Virus record (IMG/VR): IMGVR_UViG_3300027813_000012
Coordinates: 3,958-67,957 of that record
Length of the DNA: 64,000 nt
Source of the DNA: a virus
Taxonomy: Duplodnaviria; Caudoviricetes
Direction: 5' to 3' (one strand)
The notes beneath the pieces are model-generated. The model made no database searches. It was not told the DNA's origin and saw nothing but the letters and a program-made list of their open reading frames with translations. This document shows, piece by piece, positions 19,424 through 61,493 of this stretch; within the stretch, counting starts at the first letter, position 1, and every line of letters starts with the position of its first letter. The position numbers were made by a program, and so were the translations under genes.

Positions 19424-21418
19424 ATGGCAATACCTATTCTCAATCACATGGACTTTAACAAGTCCGCGGAAATCCGAAACGTTCGGTTGCATAACCAAGC
19501 CTCGTCGGGCGTGTCAAGTCCTGGTACTGGCCAAATACTGTACGATTCTGGATCTGTAAAAATATACAATGGATCTGCTTGGCTAACGCTAGCATCTGGT
19601 GGTGGTACTAGAGCTGTATCACTTGACACTAACGGAGACGGAAGTGTAAACAACACATTAGAATTAAGTGAGACTCTAGTTCTTAAAAAAGGATCTGGTG
19701 TTTCTTTAGCAGAAGTTGGTGGTGTTGTTACAATATCCGCTACAGGATCACAATTAACAGGTGCCCAAGTAAAAGACTTTGCAGGGGCGATGTTTACAAG
19801 TAATACTGAAACTGGTATTACAGCAACGTATCAAGCTGCTGATGACACGGTAGATTTAGTTATTGGCGCTGGTGATATTGTTCACTCAATGCTTGCTGAC
19901 GATTCTGTCGACGCTGACAATTTAGCTTCAGACGCGGTTGTTACCGCTAGTATAGTTGATGCAAACGTTACTGTAGCAAAAATTGCAGATGACGCAGTAA
20001 CCGCTGCTAAACTTGCGGCTAGTGCAGTAGTAACAGCATCTATTGTAGATCTAAATGTTACCACGGCTAAAATAGCTGCTGACGCAATAACTGGCGCTAA
20101 AATCGCAGACGATGCTATCGATTCAGAGCATTATGTAGATGCTAGTATTGACAACGCACACTTAGCTGGTTCAATAACAAACGCTAAATTATCAAACTCT
20201 TCAATTACAATAGACGGTACCGCAATATCTTTAGGTGGTTCGGTAACTACAAACACTATTGCTAATACTGATATAGATGTCAATAACGCTAACTTACTAA
20301 CTAGACTTGCTGCTTTAGAATCAGCAGGCGGCGCAACTGATCAAAACATAGTAATAGGTACTGATTCAGGCGATACAATAGTTGTAACTGGTAACTTACA
20401 AGTTTCTGGTACTACCACTACGGTTAATTCAACCACGGTAAGTCTTGCTGATAACAACATAGTATTATCTAGTGGCAACAGTACAGCGGCTGTAATCAAC
20501 ACAGCTGGTATAACCTTAGAAGGTGGTTCTGGTTCTGATGTAACTTGGATGTGGAACTCATCTGGTACAGCTATGGAACTGAAATTAGGTTCCACACTAA
20601 CAGCTGCTAAGTTTGGAAATATAACAGGTACACTAGCAACCGTTTCACAACCTAACGTTACAGGTGTTGGAACAATTGGAACTGGTGTATGGCAAGGTAC
20701 GGCAATAGCAAGTGCATATATTGCTGCAGATGCAATTACGGGTGCTAAGATAGCGGATGACGCTGTTGATAGCGAACATATTGCTGCTGACAGTATTGAT
20801 ACGGAACACTACGCTGCTGGTTCAGTAGATGCTACCGCTTTAGCAAGTAACGCAGTAACTACTGTTAAAATAAATGCAGATGCAGTAACTAGTGCTAAGA
20901 TTGCTGATGACGCTATAGATTCAGAACACATAACTGATGGTTCGGTTGATAACGCTCACTTAGCTGGTTCAATCACTAATGCTAAACTTTCTAATAGTTC
21001 TATCACAATTGATGGTTCAGCAATATCTTTAGGAGGTTCTGTCACTACTAACAACACTCAACTAGCGTTTGCTTCAGCTGCAGAGGTTCAAGCAGGTACA
21101 AACACGGCAAAAGCTGTTAATCCTGATAAACTCGCCGCTAAATCAGTTCACGCTACAATTGACGTATCTGATTCAAATTTCACATCTAACTTATATGCTG
21201 AGATTAATCACGGTTTAGGTAGTGAGGATTTAATAGTTCAATTATTTGATTCTTCATCAAAAGAAACAGTATTCGCTGATATTGCTAGAACAGATAAAGA
21301 TAATTCAGCATCCACAGCTAAGATCAAAGTAACTTTTGCATCAGCTCCCGCGGCTGATATAGAGGTTGTTATTACATCAATACAAGGATCGTCAGCTGGA
21401 ACAGTTGCTTACGCTTAA
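19424..21418 (+). CDS. Tail fibre protein with DAVTxAKIA repeats
   Basis: Repeated AITGAKIADDAIDSEH units; VSGTTTTVNSTTV..DNNIVL segment; FASAAEVQAG. Confidence 0.8.
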   Translation: MAIPILNHMDFNKSAEIRNVRLHNQASSGVSSPGTGQILYDSGSVKIYNGSAWLTLASGGGTRAVSLDTNGDGSVNNTLELSETLVLKKGSGVSLAEVGGVVTISATGSQLTGAQVKDFAGAMFTSNTETGITATYQAADDTVDLVIGAGDIVHSMLADDSVDADNLASDAVVTASIVDANVTVAKIADDAVTAAKLAASAVVTASIVDLNVTTAKIAADAITGAKIADDAIDSEHYVDASIDNAHLAGSITNAKLSNSSITIDGTAISLGGSVTTNTIANTDIDVNNANLLTRLAALESAGGATDQNIVIGTDSGDTIVVTGNLQVSGTTTTVNSTTVSLADNNIVLSSGNSTAAVINTAGITLEGGSGSDVTWMWNSSGTAMELKLGSTLTAAKFGNITGTLATVSQPNVTGVGTIGTGVWQGTAIASAYIAADAITGAKIADDAVDSEHIAADSIDTEHYAAGSVDATALASNAVTTVKINADAVTSAKIADDAIDSEHITDGSVDNAHLAGSITNAKLSNSSITIDGSAISLGGSVTTNNTQLAFASAAEVQAGTNTAKAVNPDKLAAKSVHATIDVSDSNFTSNLYAEINHGLGSEDLIVQLFDSSSKETVFADIARTDKDNSASTAKIKVTFASAPAADIEVVITSIQGSSAGTVAYA

Positions 21419-21478: not shown

Positions 21479-21898
21479 ATGAGCTTGAAATTTTTATCTG
21501 ACATTGAAGTCGGAACAATTATAGAGGACATAGCTGCCGCGGTAAGTAGTGGAACAAATAACAGGAACCACGATATAGATTTTGCAAAGAGTCATGCTAA
21601 CTATACAGTAACCGCCGTTAATGCTGCTAGTAATAAAATTACCTTTAGTAATTTAGGTTCCACTATTGTTGGTAAACATGGTTCTATAATAATAACAAAC
21701 CCAAGCGCTGTAGGTTCTTATACGTGGCTAGGGTCGAGTGGTTTACCAGCTACAGCTTACACACCTGGTGGTCAACAAATAACTTTTGATACAACAGCTA
21801 GTAAAATAGCTATAATAACCTATTTTGTGATTGCATCAGATAAAGTATTAATTAACTACGCTGGGGCATTTTCTGCGTACGAACAAGCAACACCATAA
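21479..21898 (+). CDS. Tail-associated hypothetical protein
   Basis: ORF track; position among fibre genes. Confidence 0.5.
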   Translation: MSLKFLSDIEVGTIIEDIAAAVSSGTNNRNHDIDFAKSHANYTVTAVNAASNKITFSNLGSTIVGKHGSIIITNPSAVGSYTWLGSSGLPATAYTPGGQQITFDTTASKIAIITYFVIASDKVLINYAGAFSAYEQATP

Positions 21899-21901
21899 AC
21901 A

Positions 21902-24319
21902 ATGAGTTGGTTATGGAATAGAATAGATTTTTGGGGTACTTCTACACTAAAGAGTACGAGCAAGGTGACAACTAAATCAACTAGCACAACTAAGTCGACT
22001 AATACTGTGTTCAACACTAGTACATCAACATTAACGACTTACAATACAACTAAATCAACTAGCACAACAACTACGTTTGCTACAACTAAATCAACTAGCA
22101 CAACAACTACATTCGCTACGTCTAAAAACACAACAACTACTTTTAGCACCAATAAAAGCACTTCCACAACAACCGCTTTTTCAACCACAAGGCCTACAAC
22201 CACCACTTTTAACACGTCTCAATCTACAAACACTGTATATAACACTAGTACATCTACTGTTTATAATACTAGTAAAACAACAACCGTTTCCACGAGTAAG
22301 TCTACGACAACTACATTTAGTACGTCTAAAGATACAACAACCGCCTACACAACTACATTTGCTACAAGCAGGTCAACTAATACTATAACGATAACTCACT
22401 ACAACACCGCATACAACACAAGTACATCTACAACTAGAGCAACTAATACTATTTACACATCTACGTTTTCTACGAGTAAAAATACAACTACCACATTTAA
22501 CACTAGTCAAGTTACATCTAAAAACACAGCAACAACTTTTAGTACTAGTAAATCAACGTTGAAAGCAACTTCGAAAAATACAACAACCACTTATAATACA
22601 ACTTGGAATACTTTTTTAAGAAATACTATATCAACGCTTATAACAGCTTATAACACTAGTACTAATACAATAACGTCTTTCAATACTAGCCAAGTTACAT
22701 CTACGGCTTATACAACAACGTTTTCCACGAGTAAAAACACTACTACAACGTATAACACTAGTAAGTCTACAAATACCGTTTATAACACCTCTACCGCAAC
22801 AGTAACTACTTATACAACAACGTTTTCCACAAGTAAAGCTACAACGACTGCTTATAATACGTCTACAAATACAATTACCGCTTACAACACTAGTACTATA
22901 ACAAGCAAGAACACGACAACCGTTTGGAGCACAAGTAAAAATACTACCACAACTTATAATACGTCTACAACAACAGTAACTACTTATACGACAACTTGGA
23001 GTACAAGTAAGGCTACGTCAACTGTTTGGAGTACAAGTAAAGCTACGTTAACAACATACAACACATCTACAGCTACTTCAACTACTTACACTTCATATTT
23101 TAATACTAGTAAGAATACAACCACAACATACAACACTAGCAAAGCTACTTCAACCGCTTACACGACAACATATGGTACTTCTAAGAACACTACCACTACA
23201 TATAACACTAGCAAGAGTACGTTAACGACTTTCAATACTAGTCAATCCACTTCAACTACTTATACCTCATATTGGAACACTAGTAAAAATACTACAACGA
23301 CATATAACACTAGCAAGACCACTTCAACCGCCTATACAACAACATATGGTACCTCTAAGAATACAACAACAACGTATTCTACATCTAAGACCACGTCTAC
23401 AACTTTTCAAACTAGTATAGTAACCTCTAAGAACACCACTACGACGTATGCTACAAGTAAGAACACTACAACGACATACGCTACAAGTAAGAGCACATCT
23501 ACAACTTTTCAAACAAGTATAGTAACTTCTAAAAATACAACAACTACTTGGGGGACTAGTAAGTCTACTACCACGACTTTCGCTACTAGCCGAAACACAA
23601 CAACCACTTTCGCCACTAGCCAAAACACAACCACAACTTACAATACTAGTAAAAGTACGTCGGTTACAACAACTTTTAACACAACTGTTAGTACTAGTAA
23701 AAACACAACTACAAATTACAATACTACTTATTCAACTACTTTTAACACTACTTTCACAACAACATACTTAACAACATATAATACGGCGGCTGGAGTAATC
23801 TCAGCGCTTAGAAGCGATGCCTCTAACCAAATGGGTGCTTGTACTCAATTCTGTACCACAACGTTTTGGCACACCGGAAGTAGTTTTCCTCCTGCTCAAG
23901 GAAATTACGCTTATACAAATTCAGCCGGCACATCAGCTTTATCGGCTGCTTGGTATGGAATTGGATCAAGTTTTGGGGGAGCTTCGCATGCGATGAGAAC
24001 AGGTAGTGGTGCTTACATTCAAGCTGTTGATGTTTGTTCTGGCGGTGGTGGTGGTGGACCTTCTGACAGAAGATTGAAAAAGAATATAGAGTTTATGTAC
24101 ATATCACCGGAAGGGCATAATGTTTACTCTTTTGAATTTAAAAAAGACAAGCTTTACGGTAAAGATGTTAGTGGTGTATGGATGGGTTGTATGGCTGATG
24201 AATTAGAACACTTAGACGATGGTACTGTCTTGATAATGGGTGATGGGTTTAAGTTTGTTCAGTACGATAAAATTGATGTTGAATTTAAAAAATTAAAATC
24301 ATGTTTGACGAAAGCTTAA
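21902..24319 (+). CDS. Thr/Ser-rich repeat fibre protein with C-terminal tip domain and S74 intramolecular chaperone
   Basis: ~10-aa repeats (Y/F/W)NTSKNTTTT, Cys-bounded tip domain, GGGGGGP-SDRRLKKNI. Confidence 0.8.
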   Translation: MSWLWNRIDFWGTSTLKSTSKVTTKSTSTTKSTNTVFNTSTSTLTTYNTTKSTSTTTTFATTKSTSTTTTFATSKNTTTTFSTNKSTSTTTAFSTTRPTTTTFNTSQSTNTVYNTSTSTVYNTSKTTTVSTSKSTTTTFSTSKDTTTAYTTTFATSRSTNTITITHYNTAYNTSTSTTRATNTIYTSTFSTSKNTTTTFNTSQVTSKNTATTFSTSKSTLKATSKNTTTTYNTTWNTFLRNTISTLITAYNTSTNTITSFNTSQVTSTAYTTTFSTSKNTTTTYNTSKSTNTVYNTSTATVTTYTTTFSTSKATTTAYNTSTNTITAYNTSTITSKNTTTVWSTSKNTTTTYNTSTTTVTTYTTTWSTSKATSTVWSTSKATLTTYNTSTATSTTYTSYFNTSKNTTTTYNTSKATSTAYTTTYGTSKNTTTTYNTSKSTLTTFNTSQSTSTTYTSYWNTSKNTTTTYNTSKTTSTAYTTTYGTSKNTTTTYSTSKTTSTTFQTSIVTSKNTTTTYATSKNTTTTYATSKSTSTTFQTSIVTSKNTTTTWGTSKSTTTTFATSRNTTTTFATSQNTTTTYNTSKSTSVTTTFNTTVSTSKNTTTNYNTTYSTTFNTTFTTTYLTTYNTAAGVISALRSDASNQMGACTQFCTTTFWHTGSSFPPAQGNYAYTNSAGTSALSAAWYGIGSSFGGASHAMRTGSGAYIQAVDVCSGGGGGGPSDRRLKKNIEFMYISPEGHNVYSFEFKKDKLYGKDVSGVWMGCMADELEHLDDGTVLIMGDGFKFVQYDKIDVEFKKLKSCLTKA

Positions 24320-24876
24320 TACCAGTATACGATGGTACAGATTTCACCATAACCAAAGAGGAGGTCGTTGTGTCAGCATCCGAAGTTGATTGGGTTGTTA
24401 ATAAAGAAACTAAATCAATACTTCGCTATAAAGATGACCAATTTCACTTTTATTACAATGACGACACTTTAGGTAGGTTGCTTACTGGTGACTGCATTAC
24501 CTGTGGTTGGGATAGCAAAATAGCGGACTTATACAGCGGTTTAGCTTGGGGTGATATATTAGTCTTAGGTTTGGGCTTGGGTGTTTTACCAGAGTACATA
24601 AAAGTAAACAAAAACCCAACTTCTATTGATGTTATAGAGAGTGACAATGAGGTTATAACCGTTGTGGATTGGTTAAGTAGTGATATAAATGTTATAAATG
24701 CAAACGAGTTTACTTATACGCCAGTTAAAACGTATGATATAATAATATGTGAGCTTTGGGCTGAAAACACAGATATTACACAAGATCACAAAGATTCTTT
24801 ACTAGCTAATTACTCCAGTCATTTAAAAAGTGGTGGGGCTATTTTAATTCCAATTAACTCTGAAATACTAAGTTAG
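24301..24876 (+). CDS. Class I SAM-dependent methyltransferase-like protein (spermidine-synthase-like fold)
   Basis: GDILVLGLGLG, IDVIESD, YDIIICELW, HLKSGG. Confidence 0.75.
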   Translation: MFDESLIPVYDGTDFTITKEEVVVSASEVDWVVNKETKSILRYKDDQFHFYYNDDTLGRLLTGDCITCGWDSKIADLYSGLAWGDILVLGLGLGVLPEYIKVNKNPTSIDVIESDNEVITVVDWLSSDINVINANEFTYTPVKTYDIIICELWAENTDITQDHKDSLLANYSSHLKSGGAILIPINSEILS

Positions 24877-26796
24877 ATGCCAAATACTTCTAGGAACACT
24901 TCACGAAATACATCTAGATCTACTATTAGAAATACGTCTAATTCTACGTATAAAGCTACCTCAACGGTATTTAATACGATAAGATCTACAAGCCGTGTAA
25001 CAACTTGGACAACCACTTTTGCAACTAGTAAGTCTACTTCAACGTCTTGGAATACAAGTAAAGCAACCTCAACATCATGGCTTACTAGCAAAGCTACAAC
25101 AACCAGTTACAACACTAGCAAAGCTACTTCGACAACATACACATCGTATTGGAATACTAGTAAAAACACCACTACAACTTATAATACTAGCAAAGCCACA
25201 CTAACAACTTATAATACTAGCAAAGCTACTTCAACTACGTATACTTCGTATTGGAACACTAGCAAGAACACTACCACGACGTACAACACAAGTCATACCA
25301 CTTTAACTTCTTATAATACTAGTACTATAACAACTAAAGATACTACCACAACGTATAATACTAGTCATACCACTTTAACAACTTGGCAGACGAGTATCAT
25401 AACCAGTAAAAACACGACAACAACTTGGTCAACTAGTAAAAATACCACAACGACATATAATACAACTAAGAGTACTTTAACTTCCTACAACACATCGACA
25501 GTTACTACCAAAAATACAACGACTACGTATAACACTAGTAAAGCAACGTTAACAACTTGGCAGACGAGTATTGTGACTAGTAAGAACACGACTACAACGT
25601 TTAGTACTAGTAAGAATACGACTACAACGTTTAATACAAGTCAAAATACGACTACAACGTTTAATACTAGTCAAATAACAACAAAGAATACGACTACAAC
25701 TTACAATACTAGTAAAACAACATTAACAACATTTAACACTAGTCAAGCCACTTCAACTGCTTACACAACTACATTTGCTACAAGCAAATTAACTAGCGAA
25801 TCATCTAGCACGTCTAAGAGTACAACGACTACGTATAACACTAGTACAATAACTACTAAGTCTACTAATACAGTTGTTTCCACAAACAAAAACACAACTA
25901 CAACGTTTAATACTAGTAAAACAACGTTAACGACTTATAACACTAGTACTATAACAAGCAAGAATACTACTACAACTTGGGGTACTTCTAAATTAACTAA
26001 TACAGCTTTTGAGACTTCTAAAAATACGCTGTCTACAGGTCAAATTTATAGATCAACAAGCCAATCAACAAACACTATAACCATAACAGCTTACAATACT
26101 AGTACAACTACAACATACAATACTAGCACAACAACATCAACGTCATACACTACGACTTGGTCAACTAGTAAAGCTACATTAACGACTTACAATACGAGTA
26201 CTATTACCACTAAGGGTACAACAACAACTTTTAATACAGCATATAATACATCAACAGATACAGCTCACACCACAACCACTGTTTACACTACTACTTACAA
26301 TACTAGTACAATAACAAGTAAAACAACTATCACAACGTTTAACACGTCTAAATCTACAACTACAACATACAATACTAGTACAACAACTACTTACAATACT
26401 AGTACGTCAACAACTGTTTCAACAAATAAAAACACTACAACCGTTTGGTCAACTAGCAAAGATACTACGACAACGTTTAATACGTCTACAGCAACTTTAA
26501 CAACAACAACGTTTAATACGTCAACTAGTACGCTAACAACTTACAATACGAGTACATTAACTAATACGACCACGACATACAACACTAGCACGTTAACCAA
26601 CACGACTACAACATACAACACCAGTAAAAATACAACTACCACTTTTTCAACAAATAAAAACACAACAACGACGTTCAACACATCTACATCTTACACTACC
26701 ACTTACAACACTAGCACAAGCACTATAACGTCTTGGTATGAAGACGGTGGTAAACAAGGTCAACTAGGTGACAAGCCTTTTAGTGACGGTAGGTAG
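24877..26796 (+). CDS. Second Thr/Ser-rich repeat protein
   Basis: Same 10-aa repeat over nearly the whole 639 aa; no signal peptide. Confidence 0.8.
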   Translation: MPNTSRNTSRNTSRSTIRNTSNSTYKATSTVFNTIRSTSRVTTWTTTFATSKSTSTSWNTSKATSTSWLTSKATTTSYNTSKATSTTYTSYWNTSKNTTTTYNTSKATLTTYNTSKATSTTYTSYWNTSKNTTTTYNTSHTTLTSYNTSTITTKDTTTTYNTSHTTLTTWQTSIITSKNTTTTWSTSKNTTTTYNTTKSTLTSYNTSTVTTKNTTTTYNTSKATLTTWQTSIVTSKNTTTTFSTSKNTTTTFNTSQNTTTTFNTSQITTKNTTTTYNTSKTTLTTFNTSQATSTAYTTTFATSKLTSESSSTSKSTTTTYNTSTITTKSTNTVVSTNKNTTTTFNTSKTTLTTYNTSTITSKNTTTTWGTSKLTNTAFETSKNTLSTGQIYRSTSQSTNTITITAYNTSTTTTYNTSTTTSTSYTTTWSTSKATLTTYNTSTITTKGTTTTFNTAYNTSTDTAHTTTTVYTTTYNTSTITSKTTITTFNTSKSTTTTYNTSTTTTYNTSTSTTVSTNKNTTTVWSTSKDTTTTFNTSTATLTTTTFNTSTSTLTTYNTSTLTNTTTTYNTSTLTNTTTTYNTSKNTTTTFSTNKNTTTTFNTSTSYTTTYNTSTSTITSWYEDGGKQGQLGDKPFSDGR

Positions 26797-26849
26797 ATAA
26801 GTGTAAAAGCGTGTAACTATTATACTATTAAGAATTCAAATCAAATTAT

Positions 26850-27773
26850 ATGGAAATGTTTAACAAAAAGGAGCTAGAGAAAAGAATAGGTCCTCTAAAA
26901 AAGAATGACAAATTATACGATTTAGAACAGGTTGAAGGCTATGTTCTAAGAAAATGTCAGGAAGCAGGTTTAGAACACAGTTATGATGTTGTGGCCGAAG
27001 AAATGCCTTACTTTAAAACACTAGCTTATACCGAGTACGCGGGAAACTTTTATATGCAACCGCTAAACTTTATGATGCGTAACGAACAGATGGCGGACGC
27101 GTGGGCTGATAACATTAAGCAAAAAGACAGGGTCGATTACGTCTCTTACTTAGTAAAAAATGTTGTTGGTGATAATGCTAATAAATACAAAGGTAGACAA
27201 GAAGAGATTGATAAGTATCCAGCTAAAGACTATTTAGTAGTTTTACCTGGTTCTAACAAGCTAAGAGAAAACGTCTGCTTGAATAAACTTAAACATATTG
27301 TTAATAAACACGGTAACAACGTCTTATTTAAACCTCATCCAATAACCACCCATCAAATAATAGGTGAGTTAAAGGACTTTTTTGGTGAAGAAAACATTCT
27401 TCCTAAAAATGTAGACATGTATTATTATATGCAAAAGGCTAAAGGTGTTTATTCCACCCACATAAGTGAGAGTCCTTTATACGCGTCTGTTTTAGGTAAA
27501 AGTATAGAACCTGTAGATGTTTGGAACAATATACAAAGAGGGTCTTTTTATTGTATAAATAGTTTTTTATACTTTCATCAATCAAATATAAAGGATTATG
27601 TTAATAGAACATTCTCTAGTTATAAATCTGGAATCATAAACCCGGTTGTTGATAAAAATTGGAAAGAAAAAGTAGACAAGTATATGGAATATATTTGTAA
27701 AAAAAGAGAAGTTTATAAAAATTGGTTTATATCTGAACCTAAAAAAGAACAAAGAAAATTAGTAAAAACATAA
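26850..27773 (+). CDS. GT-B glycosyltransferase, KpsS/KpsC-like
   Basis: ANKY, YLVVLPGS, VLFKPHP, VYSTHISESPLYASVLGKSI (cf. VVTINSTVGFEALLLGKPV). Confidence 0.6.
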   Translation: MEMFNKKELEKRIGPLKKNDKLYDLEQVEGYVLRKCQEAGLEHSYDVVAEEMPYFKTLAYTEYAGNFYMQPLNFMMRNEQMADAWADNIKQKDRVDYVSYLVKNVVGDNANKYKGRQEEIDKYPAKDYLVVLPGSNKLRENVCLNKLKHIVNKHGNNVLFKPHPITTHQIIGELKDFFGEENILPKNVDMYYYMQKAKGVYSTHISESPLYASVLGKSIEPVDVWNNIQRGSFYCINSFLYFHQSNIKDYVNRTFSSYKSGIINPVVDKNWKEKVDKYMEYICKKREVYKNWFISEPKKEQRKLVKT

Positions 27774-57650: not shown

Positions 57651-58358
57651 ATGAAATTTGATAATATTGAACGTAGAATTTTTGTAGTAGCCTTTTTCTT
57701 AACTCTTTTAGTTATTTCTTTAGCTAGTTGTTCTAGCTACAGATTATCTACTTTAAATCACGAACCAACCGAGGTAGTCTACCTCAACATACCTAGTACA
57801 GTCAAAATAGACACACTAACTTATCGTCAGTTAAACTGGAAGATGAGAACTGATTTTACTTTTAGGTGGAACTTTGCTCAATACGCTAAAAACCAACCTT
57901 ACACTTGGTACATGTCTAACTACACTTTTAATATGTGGAGACCTTATAATTCGTTTGATGTATATTGGAATAGAGACGCGTTTTGGAACCATTGGGCTTT
58001 TGGTGTACCTAGCTGGAATTACTGGAACTATAATAATTATGGTTGGTTTGGTTTTAATAATTATCGGGAAGTATCTTATGTTAGTGGTAGAAGAGGTAGC
58101 GCTATGACTACACAAGATAGAAGAGGTATCGCAGCTATGATAGAAACTTCTAAACGTAAAAAAGTAACTGTTAGAAATACCAATTGGAATAACAATAGTA
58201 AACCAATTGTAAATAGTAACAATAACATTAGAGTTTATCAAAACCCTAATAATCCTATTATAAATAAACCACCTACTATAAATTACAATAACGCAGGTAG
58301 ATCATCAGTGAATGCAACTAAACCTGTATCTAAAGGTCCACCAAGAAAAAGAGACTAA
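57651..58358 (+). CDS. Lipoprotein, W/Y/N-rich
   Basis: Lipobox ISLAS|C after hydrophobic stretch. Confidence 0.65.
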   Translation: MKFDNIERRIFVVAFFLTLLVISLASCSSYRLSTLNHEPTEVVYLNIPSTVKIDTLTYRQLNWKMRTDFTFRWNFAQYAKNQPYTWYMSNYTFNMWRPYNSFDVYWNRDAFWNHWAFGVPSWNYWNYNNYGWFGFNNYREVSYVSGRRGSAMTTQDRRGIAAMIETSKRKKVTVRNTNWNNNSKPIVNSNNNIRVYQNPNNPIINKPPTINYNNAGRSSVNATKPVSKGPPRKRD

Positions 58359-59170
58359 AGATTAGTTTTTTGTGCTCTTGGTAAGATTTTTGATACCTTA
58401 GATTTCTTAGGTGCGGTCTTGGTAAGCTTTTCATTTGTCATCCACCCATCATATTCTATCTCTTTTATTTTAAGATCACTTAGGACATGCCATTTAAGCA
58501 TCCCTTTTCTTTCTAGGTAAGAAACATACTGTTGTTCCATATTTCTATCGTGGGCTGATCTATTTAATATATAAACTGGCAAATGCCAACTATGAGGAGG
58601 AGAAGCACTTATTCTACCTCTCTTATCCTTCCCTAAAACATCACCAACACTTTTAGCAAAGAAATCAAAACCTACTAAGTCTATACTTGCGTAGGTTTTT
58701 ACTTTTTGTATAAACCATAATATGGTTAAAAATCCAGCGCTAGGCCTAAACTCACTAGGATTATACATGTCTTTATCGAAAGTCATCATGACCTCAGCAA
58801 TCTCTTCATCGGTATACATTTGAGTGTATTCCATTCCTTCAGGTAAACGATCCTCAATTATCCAATCTTTCAGTCTAAAGTTACCTCTACATCTATTTAG
58901 CAAGATTTGCACATCTTTAAATATACCGGTCTCAAAGTCTTCTCTTCTATTGTTGTAGCACGGTGACCTAAATTGGCCCGTAACCCATATGTCTACCCTA
59001 GAGCCTAGTGATTTTTCTTGTTCTGGCGTAGCTAGTATAGCTCTACCGAATCTAACAACAATATCATACTTGTCTATTTCCTTAGCCAGCTTGTGGTGCA
59101 TTATCTCTACAGAGTTCCCTACGAATACTATAGATTTACCCCTTACAAGCTCTTGTATGTCTCTAACCAT
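58355..59170 (-). CDS. GT29-like (sialyltransferase-like) glycosyltransferase
   Basis: Sialylmotif-like L (IVFVGNS..EIDKYDIVVRF), S (PSAGFL), 3 (LVGFDFF), VS (HDRNME). Confidence 0.75.
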   Translation of the reverse strand: MVRDIQELVRGKSIVFVGNSVEIMHHKLAKEIDKYDIVVRFGRAILATPEQEKSLGSRVDIWVTGQFRSPCYNNRREDFETGIFKDVQILLNRCRGNFRLKDWIIEDRLPEGMEYTQMYTDEEIAEVMMTFDKDMYNPSEFRPSAGFLTILWFIQKVKTYASIDLVGFDFFAKSVGDVLGKDKRGRISASPPHSWHLPVYILNRSAHDRNMEQQYVSYLERKGMLKWHVLSDLKIKEIEYDGWMTNEKLTKTAPKKSKVSKILPRAQKTNL

Positions 59171-59793
59171 TCCTCTGCATATTTTCCAGGTTTATTGTAA
59201 GCGTCAAATAAAGGTGTTCCGTTAGTGTAGTGTAATGCTCTGGCTTTATCTGCGTTGTGGTATCCAACTAAACAATTGTATCTACTTGGTAAGTCAAAAA
59301 TATCATTATCATTAATGAATTTAAACTCATGAAGTTGAGATGGGGTTGCGTTGTCTAGGTATTCTTTTGAAAGTTTATTCTTAAACTCTTTGTTATTAAA
59401 TATCATTAAAGAGCTCCAGTTTTTCTTTGGATAAGACTTATTCTGTATGCCATCCATTTTAATATCTCTAGGTACATAATCTTTATGTTTAACTAAAGCC
59501 ATGCTTTTCTTTAGGTATCTTCTCATTTCATTAGGATCGCATTTCCATAAAAAGTCATTATCACAGAACATTGCCGTACCTTGATAATTACAAATCATTG
59601 GTACATAGAACCTAGTAAATGAAAACTCTGTTGATTCTCCTTCTACATCTTTTCTACCATACAATCCATGTTTTTTTAAATGCTCTTTATCTAACCAAGT
59701 TATGTCAGCGTCTGGTTGATATTTCCTAATAGACGCTTCACAGACTTTTGTGACGTCTTTAAATCTCGAATCGTGTCCAATAAATATTCTCAT
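59143..59793 (-). CDS. GT-A glycosyltransferase (GT8-like)
   Basis: IFIGHD, STEFSFTRF, FCDND (DxD), KNWSSLMIFN, LHYTNGTP. Confidence 0.8.
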   Translation of the reverse strand: MRIFIGHDSRFKDVTKVCEASIRKYQPDADITWLDKEHLKKHGLYGRKDVEGESTEFSFTRFYVPMICNYQGTAMFCDNDFLWKCDPNEMRRYLKKSMALVKHKDYVPRDIKMDGIQNKSYPKKNWSSLMIFNNKEFKNKLSKEYLDNATPSQLHEFKFINDNDIFDLPSRYNCLVGYHNADKARALHYTNGTPLFDAYNKPGKYAEEWLETYKSL

Positions 59794-60335
59794 AATTTTT
59801 GTTTTTTAGTTGCTACAAAATATAAAGCTCCTTTGTTTGATGATACTTCAAGAAAATTCCAATATTTTCCAAGTTTTAAAAGCCACCAAGGGGATTTTTG
59901 TATTGTTAAATGTAAGTTAGTGTGATTAGGGAAAGCACCTTTAGCTGGTGTTAAAGCTATACTTTGAACTGTAAAGTTATTTGTTTTGTCATAAATATGT
60001 TTTATAACATTGTCTACTAAGTCTGGCTCAACGTGCTCCATCACGTCAAAACACACACTAGCATCACAAGCTGGTGGGTCATGGTCAAAACCCTCTCTTC
60101 CTGGCTCGTATTCATGAACATCAAAGCCTAAATCATCCCCGTGCTCCCATAGAAAAGACCTCTTTAAGTCACCGCTACCACAACCATAATCTAATATGGA
60201 TTTTGATTTAGATAGCTTCATGTATTTATATATTTTATCTTCGTGTCCTCTTACCGCTCCACCCCATTTGCTATTTATTTTACCGTGTTTTTTTTGGAGC
60301 ATTTCTTTATACTCTTTAGATACTAGGTTTTCCAT
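59790..60335 (-). CDS. Class I SAM-dependent methyltransferase
   Basis: ILDYGCGSG, CFDVMEHV; start trimmed to MENLV. Confidence 0.85.
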   Translation of the reverse strand: MENLVSKEYKEMLQKKHGKINSKWGGAVRGHEDKIYKYMKLSKSKSILDYGCGSGDLKRSFLWEHGDDLGFDVHEYEPGREGFDHDPPACDASVCFDVMEHVEPDLVDNVIKHIYDKTNNFTVQSIALTPAKGAFPNHTNLHLTIQKSPWWLLKLGKYWNFLEVSSNKGALYFVATKKQKL

Positions 60336-60339
60336 TTGT

Positions 60340-60684
60340 TTATATTTTTGTTCCTGATGATTTACGTTTAATGTCGTCGTGATTAAACTCTGCCCAGTAC
60401 AGTTCAAAAGCAACTCCAGGCATTACACCCTCAAATTGATGGTACTTACCTGGTTTAACCATAGTGAAGTCACCAGCTTTTAGTATTGTCTCATCTACAA
60501 GGCCCTGGTCATCTTGCCATACTCTTATTATCATCTCTCCTGATTCTACAAAAAATCCATTCCATTTGAATTTATGTTCGTGTTCAGAGCATTTATACCC
60601 AGCGTTAAACTCTATTCTGTGAAATTCTAAAACTCCATTTTTGTGGATCATCTCTGTTCCACCCCATATTTTACCTGCTTTCAT
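60340..60684 (-). CDS. Cupin protein (sugar isomerase-like)
   Basis: CSEHEH..FFVESG..GKYHQF. Confidence 0.75.
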   Translation of the reverse strand: MKAGKIWGGTEMIHKNGVLEFHRIEFNAGYKCSEHEHKFKWNGFFVESGEMIIRVWQDDQGLVDETILKAGDFTMVKPGKYHQFEGVMPGVAFELYWAEFNHDDIKRKSSGTKI

Positions 60685-60686
60685 AA

Positions 60687-61493
60687 TTATATTCCGTTTT
60701 TAAAGTAAGGAGTTTTCCATTTTTGAGAATTTATTGGAAACCTAACTGATTTGATTATTTTTTTAATTGTTTTAGTAGGGTTGAAGTCAAACCATTCCGC
60801 TCTCTTGTTGTCCTTTAGGGATGATATTTTAAATGCTTCTAGTGATTGCTTGTCTTTATTAGAAAAATGAATACTACATAAAATCCTTGGACCTATCGCA
60901 TCAACTTTATGATACTGGTATTGCGGTATGTATAGCATATCACCTTCGTCTAACGTAAACTCTTCTAATATTGTTTCAGGTTTATCAGGTATAGACTCCT
61001 TGTATATAGTCCATTTAACTTTGCCTTTCGTATGAAACAAAAAGTTTTCTGTAGCATCACCATGAGCCGGGTAACTTTTAGATCCAGCTGAAGGAGATGC
61101 ATAAACATTCACTTGGCCTTGTTTAAAGTATCTTTCAAATTCAAAGCACATATCTACGAGATCTTTATTTTCATACTCTGCAAATGGTATAACAAAGCTT
61201 TTACCCTTGCTCCAAAGATTCGCTATTTTATTTTTACTAAGTATTTCGGTTTTATCCTTGCCACTTCTAGATTTGTCTAAACAAAATTTACCATCCTTGT
61301 CGTCGTAATCTATTACTTGTAATGACTTAACAAAGGGGTATCTATTTATATAATCACTCAAGTTGTCGAAAGTGAACAAATTTTTGAATTTATTTCTTCT
61401 AAGTATTAAGTGTTTTTTGCCCCAGTACTCTTTAAAAAATGTTTGCACTGGAACTGGATCTAATATTTCTTCTAATGTTATTTTATTTTTCAT
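60687..61493 (-). CDS. JmjC/cupin-4 2OG-Fe(II) hydroxylase (YcfD/NO66-like)
   Basis: FFKEYWGKKHLIL, VNVYASP..AHGD, LDEGDMLYIP..YHKV. Confidence 0.85.
   Translation of the reverse strand: MKNKITLEEILDPVPVQTFFKEYWGKKHLILRRNKFKNLFTFDNLSDYINRYPFVKSLQVIDYDDKDGKFCLDKSRSGKDKTEILSKNKIANLWSKGKSFVIPFAEYENKDLVDMCFEFERYFKQGQVNVYASPSAGSKSYPAHGDATENFLFHTKGKVKWTIYKESIPDKPETILEEFTLDEGDMLYIPQYQYHKVDAIGPRILCSIHFSNKDKQSLEAFKISSLKDNKRAEWFDFNPTKTIKKIIKSVRFPINSQKWKTPYFKNGI

What the first reader, a model, noticed from the sequence alone, without database searches (positions are those of the whole stretch)
21902..27773. Candidate phage 'mucin' glycoprotein module: T/S-rich fibre - MTase - T/S-rich protein - glycosyltransferase
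Seen: two proteins (805 and 639 aa) made mostly of Thr/Ser/Asn with dozens of N-T-S/T sequons, no signal peptides, one ending in a tip domain plus S74 chaperone. They are interleaved with a methyltransferase and followed by a KpsS-like GT; more GTs lie at 58355-59793. Established: S74 domains mark trimeric virion fibres; host Bacteroidota O-glycosylation is periplasmic and uses D-(S/T)-x, which is rare in these repeats; virion glycosylation by phage GTs is known in some mycobacteriophages. Inference: the phage builds heavily glycosylated, possibly ulosonic-acid-capped, mucin-like fibres, for a glycan shield, capsule mimicry or adhesion to particles and gels.
Basis: partly seen in the sequence, partly recalled or inferred. 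Interest (0 to 1): 0.85.

Follow-up and report, generated by a model that had tools for sequence, protein, structure and literature searches.

The report
Phage Thr-repeat fibre with dedicated glycosyltransferase
A marine phage encodes two long threonine-rich repeat proteins next to an enzyme shaped like bacterial Kdo/sialic-acid transferases, and this protein-enzyme pairing recurs in hundreds of phage contigs from unrelated phage types, so it is probably an undescribed system for sugar-coating phage fibres, though no modification has yet been observed.

Summary
The four ORFs are real. A (805 aa) and B (639 aa) are paralogues built from a 10-residue unit, x-T-x-x-x-T-x-T-x-aromatic. Thr at positions 2, 6 and 8 is 100% conserved here and 97-98% conserved in distant lineages. 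The repeats are proline-free and basic (pI 10), so 'mucin' is a poor label. A ends in a folded tip plus an S74-type chaperone (15 of 16 homologues hit PF13884; Ser-x4-Lys invariant).

The 307-aa protein X folds confidently (pLDDT 96). Its best matches are KpsC and WbbB, which are beta-Kdo transferases. It has an invariant K-x-H-P CMP-binding motif but lacks their QXXXD Asp nucleophile, so it belongs to a new family.

Of 206 testable X loci, 200 have a Thr/aromatic repeat ORF directly upstream, in all 14 X clusters (23-100% identity). All 51 testable loci picked by the repeat motif alone carry X. Cultured Caulobacter phages BL198 and Cr30 have the pair too.

The distal genes (58355-60413) lie beside X in other lineages, and KdsA follows X in 15 loci.

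Best reading: cytoplasmic ulosonic-acid glycosylation of a fibre protein (confidence 0.5). Glycosylation and virion location are unproven. The two first-reader notes found in this scan are on this same window, not on other DNA.

The parts
19424..21418 (+). Tail-fibre gene (664 aa) upstream of the module; context
   Evidence: PHROG tail-fibre families phrog_892 (E 1e-37), phrog_21412 and phrog_28766. Conserved upstream of the module in related loci.
21479..21898 (+). p139, a small conserved protein always preceding A (124-489 aa in relatives; fused to the fibre gene in L036)
   Evidence: Synteny across IMG/VR loci. No family hit.
21902..23779 (+). A, repeat part (residues 1-626): conserved N-terminal motif MSWLWNRIDFW, then about 60 units of x-T-x-x-x-T-x-T-x-[FYW]
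   Evidence: AF2 monomer pLDDT is 22-30 for the repeats.
23780..24061 (+). A, tip domain (residues about 627-720): small beta-rich domain with conserved Cys, ending in a Gly run
   Evidence: AF2 pLDDT 82-92. Conserved in 15 related loci. No significant structural match.
24062..24319 (+). A, S74-type intramolecular chaperone (from Ser721 of S-D-R-R-L-K)
   Evidence: 15 of 16 homologues hit PF13884, best E 1e-6. Invariant Ser and Lys. Weak match to the MyRF ICA domain, Z 3.3, rmsd 2.3 A over 58 residues. The window's own copy scores only 15 bits.
24301..24876 (+). MT-like protein (191 aa), class-I SAM-methyltransferase-like; overlaps A's end by 19 nt and abuts B's start
   Evidence: Conserved between A and B in the window's lineage; replaced or accompanied by another MTase (VLECGFGMG motif, sometimes with a Hint-like extension) in variant loci.
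24877..26796 (+). B, second repeat protein (639 aa): N-terminus MPNTSR, all repeats, short conserved C-terminal motif WY..GQLG..PFSDGR, no globular domain
   Evidence: (about 68% nt identity to A).
26850..27773 (+). X, GT-B protein with KpsC/WbbB-like fold; invariant K161-x-H163-P164; S/T206; P-G-S-N in place of QXXXD
58355..59170 (-). GT29-like (sialyltransferase-like) protein, 271 aa; its homologues lie beside X in other lineages
59143..59793 (-). 216-aa protein, probable small GT-A (D78-N-D80); travels with the cassette
   Evidence: phrog_28018, unknown function. Atlas: viral 'glycosyltransferase' clusters at score 0.98, GT8 in 13-14% of members. DxD invariant. Homologues found in 29 loci, all with X. 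Weak GT8 hit in a homologue.
59790..60413 (-). Class-I methyltransferase (207 aa); a homologue follows the GT29-like gene next to X in L133 and L134

Best explanation
This is a conserved phage cassette. One or two long, basic, proline-free proteins built from a 10-residue unit (x-T-x-x-x-T-x-T-x-aromatic) are paired with a dedicated CMP-sugar-type GT-B transferase, X. The most likely mechanism is as follows. In the infected cell's cytoplasm, X uses a CMP-activated ulosonic acid (Kdo or a related acid). The host supplies the donor in this phage; in some other lineages a phage KdsA next to X boosts supply. X attaches the sugar to the repeat proteins, probably at the invariant Thr hydroxyls or on a primer sugar. 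This would give a basic fibre an acidic glycan coat. Protein A is a trimeric fibre with a small tip domain, whose folding is driven by a C-terminal S74 chaperone that then cuts itself off. B is a second repeat protein without a tip. The methyltransferase between A and B, together with the GT29-like, GT-A-like and MTase genes at 58.3-60.4 kb, are lineage-variable accessories that would extend or trim the modification. Shown here: gene structures, repeat architecture, folds, motifs, and the two-way gene association. Inferred: that the repeat protein is X's substrate, the identity of the donor sugar, the cytoplasmic timing, and the virion location.
For: (1) Two-way association. Of 206 testable X loci, 200 have a Thr-rich, aromatic-rich ORF ending within 400 nt upstream, in all 14 X clusters at 50% identity (X is 23-100% identical to the window's). 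All 51 testable loci chosen only by DNA encoding TTTTFNTS contain X, 47 of them adjacent. (2) The same pair follows the fibre gene in unrelated cultured phages: T7-like BL198 (gp046 then gp047) and T4-like Cr30 (gp254 then gp255). (3) X model pLDDT is 95.9. Foldseek's top hits are WbbB, KpsC and KrkA at E 1e-5. Independent VIA gives KpsC Z 10.7 over 225 residues, then WbbB 8.9 and a polysialyltransferase 8.6. (4) K161, H163 and P164 are invariant in 93 of 93 members and S/T206 in 93 of 93. The (K/R)XHP motif binds CMP in sialyl- and Kdo-transferases (PMC12887879). (5) A KdsA equivalog (395 bits against a cut-off of 242) lies directly after X in 15 loci. GT29-like genes (37 loci) and the 216-aa GT-like gene (29 loci) occur only in loci that also hold X. 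(6) Thr at unit positions 2, 6 and 8 is 97-100% conserved across lineages, which shows selection on specific hydroxyls or on a structural face. (7) The repeats have pI about 10 with almost no acidic residues, which complements acidic sugars. (8) S74 chaperone on A. Tight operon: 19-nt overlap, zero gap, then a 53-nt gap.
Against: There is no direct evidence of any modification or of virion incorporation. X lacks the QXXXD Asp nucleophile that defines its nearest structural relatives, so its chemistry and donor cannot simply be transferred from them. Known KpsC and WbbB acceptors are glycolipids and glycans, not proteins. The window's genome has no KdsA or CMP-sugar synthetase. Conserved adjacency could reflect co-assembly rather than an enzyme-substrate relation. 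The repeats gave no confident fold, so neither their structure nor the accessibility of the Thr residues is known. In this genome the distal GT-like genes sit among nucleotide-metabolism genes (RNR; a ThyS-like gene).
Confidence: 0.5

Rival explanations
1. The repeat proteins are unmodified, beta-structured fibre or decoration proteins. X, with the other GT-like genes, remodels a host surface glycan such as LPS core or capsule during infection, for example to block superinfection or to release progeny. The adjacency only reflects a shared host-range module.
For: The nearest structural relatives of X act on LPS and capsule glycolipids. GT genes beside tail-spike genes are known from seroconverting phages (own knowledge). 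The position-specific Thr/aromatic pattern on alternate residues looks structural.
Against: It does not explain why X is almost never found without a Thr-repeat ORF directly upstream (200 of 206) or why the repeats are never found without X (51 of 51), across 14 X lineages and three phage morphotypes. These are apparently lytic phages.
Confidence: 0.15
2. X is a non-catalytic or moonlighting assembly factor (chaperone) for the repeat fibre that has kept a GT-B shell. It would be analogous to the tail-fibre assembly genes that follow fibre genes.
For: Its position immediately after fibre genes is typical of fibre chaperones. X lacks the QXXXD nucleophile. B and most repeat proteins have no chaperone domain of their own.
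Against: K-x-H-P, S/T206, E207, D46, K112 and Y113 are 96-100% conserved over 93 diverse members, which is the signature of a ligand-binding active site. KdsA and other GT-like genes cluster with X.
Confidence: 0.1
3. The GT-like genes (certainly possible for the distal GT29-like, GT-A-like and MTase set; less likely for X) hypermodify phage DNA with sugars, including sugar acids, rather than modifying protein.
For: Phage GT clusters glycosylate cytosines, and one GT-B enzyme gave a Kdo-type adduct; such clusters can lie near structural genes (bioRxiv 10.1101/2023.12.21.572611). The window's genome has a ThyS-family gene. The distal cluster lies beside RNR and a 2OG-oxygenase.
Against: The complete BL198 genome has the repeat protein plus X but no ThyS-family gene. 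The oxygenase is JmjC_2 (the ribosomal-oxygenase type), not TET/JBP, and does not travel with the cassette. No C5-cytosine MTase is present. T4 beta-GT does not appear in the printed match lists of either fold search. This rival does not explain the link to the repeat proteins.
Confidence: 0.1
4. The repeats form a Thr-faced beta-solenoid that binds ice, gels or polysaccharide directly (an antifreeze-like or adhesin surface) and needs no glycan.
For: Regular T-x-T-x-aromatic pattern. An earlier first-reader note proposed this reading (e1-5947581).
Against: The AF2 monomer gives pLDDT 22-30 for the repeats. This reading does not explain the obligate partner enzyme. It is not exclusive of glycosylation.
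Confidence: 0.05

Closest known systems
Retaining beta-Kdo transferases KpsC/KpsS (GT107), WbbB (GT99), KrkA (GT140)
   Same: Best structural matches over nearly the whole protein. Shared (K/R)XHP CMP-binding motif and a phosphate-binding Ser at the same spacing. Kdo supply genes next to X in some lineages.
   Different: X has no QXXXD motif and no conserved Asp at that site; it has P-G-S-N instead. No Pfam Capsule_synth membership. X is phage-encoded, a stand-alone protein of about 300 aa, and is paired with a protein rather than with a glycolipid pathway.
Sialyltransferases and polysialyltransferases (GT29, GT38, GT52, GT80)
   Same: Same CMP-sugar motif class. 7 of 93 X-family members weakly hit PF07388. 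A polysialyltransferase scores Z 8.6. The distal 271-aa protein resembles GT29 ST3Gal-I.
   Different: Sequence similarity is marginal. The acceptor and the donor are unknown.
Dedicated cytoplasmic glycosyltransferase plus repeat-protein substrate pairs in bacteria: TibC/TibA and Aah/AIDA-I (heptose on Ser/Thr of 19-residue repeats), HMW1C/HMW1 (N-x-S/T), GtfA/B with serine-rich repeat adhesins (own knowledge, not tested here)
   Same: The logic of an adjacent dedicated GT and a long repetitive Ser/Thr-rich surface fibre modified before export or assembly.
   Different: Unrelated enzyme families and repeat units. Those are bacterial adhesins, not phage proteins.
Mycobacteriophage virion glycosylation by phage-encoded GTs (own knowledge; mentioned in papers listed)
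   Same: Phage GT genes proposed or shown to glycosylate the phage's own structural proteins.
   Different: Different GT families, substrates (capsid and tail-tube C-termini) and hosts. No periodic Thr repeat and no CMP-sugar-type enzyme.
S74 (intramolecular chaperone) fibres: K1F endosialidase, T5 pb1, MyRF ICA domain
   Same: C-terminal Ser-Lys autoproteolytic chaperone after a fibre tip.
   Different: The shaft here is a Thr/aromatic 10-residue repeat of unknown fold. Only A carries the chaperone.
Phage tail-protein methylation needed for adsorption (PMC13445384, abstract seen)
   Same: A precedent for methylation of phage fibre or tail proteins, relevant to the MTases (class I here; SET domain in L141) that accompany the repeats, which carry Lys or Arg at unit position 4.
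   Different: There the enzyme is host-encoded. No evidence here for the MTase's substrate.

Membership tests
Retaining beta-Kdo transferases (GT99/GT107/GT140) | Modified GT-B fold like KpsC/WbbB | tested here: met
   Foldseek E 1e-5, probability 1.0, TM 0.32-0.45. VIA: KpsC Z 10.7, rmsd 3.8 A, 225 residues aligned; WbbB Z 8.9.
Retaining beta-Kdo transferases (GT99/GT107/GT140) | (K/R)XHP CMP-binding motif | tested here: met
   K161, H163 and P164 present in 93 of 93 family members. Motif definition from PMC12887879.
Retaining beta-Kdo transferases (GT99/GT107/GT140) | QXXXD motif with absolutely conserved Asp nucleophile, about 34 residues before the His | tested here: not met
   No conserved Gln or Asp from H-45 to H-20. 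The strand end carries P133-G134 (91/93)-S135-N136 (90/93; Asp in 1).
Retaining beta-Kdo transferases (GT99/GT107/GT140) | Ser-Ser pair binding the CMP phosphate, about 44 residues after the His | tested here: inconclusive
   S/T206 in 93 of 93 members at H+43, but the next residue is Glu (89/93), not Ser.
Retaining beta-Kdo transferases (GT99/GT107/GT140) | Transfers Kdo from CMP-Kdo | not testable with these tools
   Indirect only: a KdsA equivalog lies adjacent to X in 15 loci.
Pfam Capsule_synth (PF05159) | Profile match above the curated cut-off | tested here: not met
   No hit for the window's X. 3 of 93 family members hit weakly (best E 0.006). The own-genome search was negative.
Peptidase_S74 (intramolecular chaperone) | Profile match PF13884 | tested here: inconclusive
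   The window's copy scores 15 bits against a cut-off of 22. 15 of 16 homologous C-termini match, best E 1e-6.
Peptidase_S74 (intramolecular chaperone) | Catalytic Ser with a Lys five residues downstream, at the start of the domain | tested here: met
   S-D-R-R-L-K; both Ser and Lys are invariant in 16 sequences. The dyad spacing itself is from own knowledge.
Peptidase_S74 (intramolecular chaperone) | Autocleavage and trimerisation | not testable with these tools
Class-I SAM methyltransferase (24301-24876) | Rossmann motif I (GxGxG) and a profile match | tested here: inconclusive
   L87-G90-L91-G94 invariant. Profile against BamL/BpumL E 0.006. Pfam MTS E 0.034, below cut-off. phrog_3820 E 8e-4.
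GT29 sialyltransferase (58355-59170) | Pfam PF00777 above cut-off; sialyl motifs | tested here: inconclusive
   Window copy 21.4 bits against 23. Homologue L152:8749-9531 (40% identical) scores 24.6 against 23. The family profile's three best PDB hits are sialyltransferases, best E 0.0011.
Mucin-type (PTS) domain | Pro/Thr/Ser-rich tandem repeats | tested here: not met
   Thr/Ser-rich, yes, but Pro is 0.2-0.3%, aromatics are 10-11%, pI is 10, and Thr is invariant at fixed positions.
Mucin-type (PTS) domain | Dense O-glycosylation | not testable with these tools
   Requires glycoproteomics.
Phage DNA sugar-hypermodification cluster | GT clustered with a 5-methylpyrimidine dioxygenase or a ThyS-like hydroxymethylase | tested here: inconclusive
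   A ThyS-family gene is present in the genome, outside the window. The Tet_JBP search is uninformative because the controls did not ring. No PF00145 MTase. BL198 has the core pair without ThyS.

The most novel reading that the evidence does not exclude
X founds a new glycosyltransferase family that transfers Kdo or another CMP-activated ulosonic acid directly onto threonines of a periodic repeat protein. That would be a protein O-ulosonylation system, widespread in marine and freshwater phages of several morphotypes. It would produce acidic glyco-fibres whose length (138 to more than 1970 aa) evolves rapidly by repeat gain and loss.
Probability: 0.35. Interest if true: 0.9.

Novelty: new variant of a known kind. 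Interest (0 to 1): 0.78.

Why it matters
If the reading is right, a large and abundant group of aquatic phages decorates its own fibres with acidic sugars. They would do so using an enzyme family absent from Pfam, NCBIfam and the annotated PHROGs. The group includes relatives of Flavobacterium and Cellulophaga podoviruses, T7-like and T4-like Caulobacter phages, and many uncultured lineages. This would extend phage virion glycosylation far beyond mycobacteriophages and add a new acceptor class (protein Thr) to the Kdo/sialyl-transferase superfamily. It would also give a handle on how phages tune adsorption, stickiness to marine gels, or evasion of host recognition. Even if glycosylation is wrong, the strict two-way pairing of a position-invariant 10-residue Thr repeat with one enzyme family is a clean, testable gene-function link. 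It can be tested directly in cultured Caulobacter phages.

Tried and rejected
- Complex prediction on three copies of A's C-terminal 267 residues returned 'no answer'. It is evidence neither for nor against trimerisation.
- Single-sequence and profile searches of the PDB for X, A's C-terminus and the 216-aa protein gave nothing significant. The X profile's top hit was KpsC at E 0.28, aligned on the KxHP and S..LGK segments.
- The fold search of A's tip domain gave no match with Z above 4.
- The AF2 monomer gave no confident structure for the repeats. The alignment was shallow and repeat registers are ambiguous, so this shows neither disorder nor a novel fold.
- Distant single X queries in IMG/VR found nothing. 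Two profiles were too diverse for the pattern scan.
- The KVP40 partial match lies in a non-structural context and was judged uninformative.
- The upstream-neighbour routine was faulty: it missed ORFs followed by extra stops. Its per-cluster counts are superseded.
- The atlas search for B returned only unannotated viral clusters.
- I could not obtain KpsC sequences for a profile-profile alignment (one search gave no loci). Equivalence of the QXXXD site therefore rests on motif spacing and predicted secondary structure.
- The N-glycosylation reading (HMW1C-type) is disfavoured because Asn at position 1 is only 53-58% conserved. No GT41 search was run.

Full report
**What is there**

The window is almost all of a 67,957-bp IMG/VR virus record rated 100% complete. 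Its large terminase is 45% identical to those of Flavobacterium 'elemo' and Cellulophaga podoviruses, and 61% identical to an uncultured freshwater phage.

They form a tight operon: A's end overlaps the MT-like gene by 19 nt, B starts at the base after the MT-like stop, and X follows 53 nt later. A and B are paralogues, about 68% identical at the DNA level over long stretches. The cultured elemo phage and the closest GenBank relative lack the whole module between the fibre gene and the GroES-like and terminase genes. The module is therefore accessory and sits at a variable spot.

**The repeats**

They are not simply T/S-rich. They consist of a 10-residue unit, x-T-x-x-x-T-x-T-x-[F/Y/W], with occasional 4- and 14-residue variants.
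- In 59 clean units from A and B, Thr at positions 2, 6 and 8 is 100% conserved. Position 3 is Ser (95%), position 4 is Lys (68%), and position 10 is always aromatic.
- In 1,196 units from distant lineages the same three Thr are 97-98% conserved.
- The conserved residues fall on even positions, which is one face of an extended strand.
- Aromatic gaps of exactly 10 make up 45-46% of all gaps, against 4% in shuffles.
- Sequons (43 and 55) are only modestly above composition, and the Asn is not conserved (53-58%).
- The repeats contain 0.2-0.3% Pro, have pI about 10, and have 44-45 basic against 2-9 acidic residues. All four Thr codons are used.

'Mucin-like' is therefore a poor description. An AF2 monomer model gave pLDDT 22-30 for the repeats, so their fold is unresolved.

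**The ends of A and B**

A begins with a short conserved motif (MSWLWNRIDFW). A similar motif opens the Thr-repeat proteins of distant lineages. A ends in a confidently folded small tip domain (pLDDT 82-92) and a tail that behaves as an S74 intramolecular chaperone. The window's copy is sub-threshold, but 15 of 16 homologues hit PF13884 (best E 1e-6), and the Ser and the Lys five residues later are invariant. B has no globular domain, only a short conserved C-terminal motif. In relatives both proteins range from about 500 to 1850 aa.

**The methyltransferase**

The 191-aa protein has an invariant motif I and weak matches to class-I SAM methyltransferases. In the window's lineage a methyltransferase always lies between A and B. 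Some loci carry a different, clearer MTase, sometimes with a weakly Hint-like C-terminal extension, and in those loci A ends in GGGC-x-RGC instead of tip plus S74. This gene is lineage-specific and not part of the universal core: only 8 of 78 repeat-selected loci carry it.

**X**

No curated family matches X. It belongs to a small family of stand-alone proteins of about 300 aa, with 254 clusters at 50% identity among 1.8 billion representatives. With a 93-sequence alignment AF2 gives pLDDT 95.9. Foldseek's top hits are all retaining beta-Kdo transferases (WbbB, KpsC, KrkA; E about 1e-5). The independent VIA search ranks KpsC first (Z 10.7, 225 residues), followed by the KpsC 2,7-transferase (Z 9.5), WbbB (Z 8.9) and a polysialyltransferase (Z 8.6).

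The KrkA paper (PMC12887879) defines the shared (K/R)XHP CMP-binding motif and the QXXXD Asp nucleophile. In X, K161, H163 and P164 are invariant (93/93) and S/T206 is universal. There is no QXXXD: the equivalent strand end carries P-G-S-N, with G134 in 91/93 and N136 in 90/93. The N-terminal domain has its own near-invariant D46, Y60, K112 and Y113. X is thus a CMP-sugar-type GT-B enzyme of a new family. It is not a mechanistic member of GT99, GT107 or GT140.

- Among 80 IMG/VR loci with close X homologues, every locus with upstream sequence has a T/S-rich ORF directly upstream, in the conserved order p139 - A - MT - B - X - small genes - GroES-like - TerL. That is one lineage.
- A metagenome scan with a mid-distance X profile gave 75 further loci. 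About 63 of about 72 have a Thr-rich, aromatic-periodic ORF ending just before X. Background ORFs have median Thr of 7% and a 95th percentile of 17%.
- Pooled and recounted: 200 of 206 testable loci, in all 14 X clusters at 50% identity, with X 23-100% identical to the window's.
- Conversely, 78 loci were picked only by DNA encoding TTTTFNTS. Of these, 72 have a Thr-rich aromatic ORF, 51 have at least 1 kb of downstream sequence, and all 51 carry X (47 adjacent). None lacks it.
- In cultured phages the pair follows the fibre gene in T7-like Caulobacter phage BL198 (gp046: 217 aa, T 27%, Y+F 14%; gp047 = X) and in T4-like Cr30 (gp254: T 20%, Y 19%; gp255 = X).
- In distant lineages the gene upstream of the repeat protein is always a large fibre-like gene.

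**The distal genes**

The 271-aa protein at 58355-59170 is 40% and 35% identical to genes lying directly after X in L152 and L133. One of those passes Pfam's GT29 cut-off. The family profile's three best PDB hits are sialyltransferases.
- Homologues of this protein occur in 37 held loci, all with X.
- Homologues of the neighbouring 216-aa protein occur in 29 loci, all with X. That protein has an invariant DxD and an atlas link to viral GT8-like clusters.
- The MTase at 59790-60413 follows the GT29-like gene in L133 and L134.
- A true KdsA equivalog lies immediately after X in 15 loci.
- The JmjC gene does not travel with the set.

The window's own genome has no KdsA or CMP-sugar synthetase. 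The system in this genome is therefore split between 21.9-27.8 kb and 58.3-60.4 kb, and it would rely on host CMP-sugar.

**Interpretation**

The obligate pairing, the active-site-like conservation in X, the CMP-sugar motif, the neighbouring Kdo synthase in some lineages and the basic, Thr-invariant repeat all fit one model. In that model, dedicated cytoplasmic glycosylation puts an ulosonic acid on a fibre protein. I give this 0.5.

Rivals:
- X acts on host glycans (0.15).
- X is a non-catalytic assembly factor (0.10).
- The GT-like genes modify DNA (0.10). This rival is real for the distal genes, because phage GTs can put a Kdo-type sugar on cytosine and this genome has a ThyS-family gene. 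It does not explain the repeat link, and BL198 has the core pair without ThyS.
- The repeats are an unglycosylated Thr-faced binding surface (0.05).

Nothing here shows modification or virion location.

**Novelty**

Literature searches found no description of this cassette. The general idea, phage GTs modifying virion proteins or a dedicated GT with a repeat-protein substrate, is known. The enzyme family, the repeat and the probable sugar class are new.

Noticed in passing
L030:6512-7558, L034:4572-5669, L043:7170-8216 (also L036, L046, L053, L056, L080): In a sub-lineage the gene between the two repeat proteins is a different class-I MTase (motif VLECGFGMG) fused to a C-terminal part with weak Intein_splicing/Hint similarity (E 0.01-0.05; 'VTGNHPM'). 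In the same loci protein A ends in GGGC-x-RGC instead of tip plus S74. L084 and L085 carry both MTases in tandem.
   Followed up: partly
G000:C1:2088-2564 (minus strand; outside the window, in the first 3.9 kb of the genome): Thymidylate-synthase-family gene (99 bits, covering profile positions 54-218) with one in-frame TGA reported. It could be ThyA or a pyrimidine hydroxymethylase, which is relevant to the DNA-modification rival.
   Followed up: no
window 60687-61493 (-): JmjC_2/Cupin_8 2OG-oxygenase (E 9e-14) between the MTase and ribonucleotide reductase. It has no homologue in any other cassette-bearing locus held, so it is probably unrelated to the system.
   Followed up: partly
L152:6964-8403 and neighbours (84.6-kb metagenome contig): KdsA is fused to an unassigned C-terminal half of about 215 aa. 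It is followed by a cupin, the GT29-like gene, a radical-SAM/SPASM protein, an SDR and the GT-A-like gene: a full sugar-tailoring cluster attached to a repeat protein of at least 1969 aa.
   Followed up: partly
L141:7738-8238 (also L140): A SET-domain protein (E 2.6e-9; a protein-lysine methyltransferase family, by own knowledge) lies 2.7 kb downstream of X. Together with the class-I MTases elsewhere, this hints that Lys or Arg at repeat position 4 may be methylated.
   Followed up: no
L122:2-2104: The fibre-like gene upstream of a 1269-aa Thr-repeat protein is collagen-like (G-x-x triplets: GIQGTQGIQGETG...).
   Followed up: no
L091:5098-6324 (BL198 gp045) and L092:4673-5620 (Cr30 gp253): The fibre proteins preceding the cassette in a T7-like and a T4-like Caulobacter phage end in similar C-termini (...VFFSGATP and ...AFFSGST). 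This suggests that the fibre tip, the Thr-rich protein and X move together as one host-range module.
   Followed up: no
L107-L111: In one X lineage a protein with an S74-like C-terminal helix (..YPQQIQYAMLKAIQEL..) is followed by a very short (96-104 aa) Thr-rich ORF and then X. This is the smallest version of the cassette seen.
   Followed up: partly
window 22001-24000: Strong negative GC skew (-0.39) over gene A, a by-product of ACN Thr codons. It could mislead skew-based origin calls.
   Followed up: no
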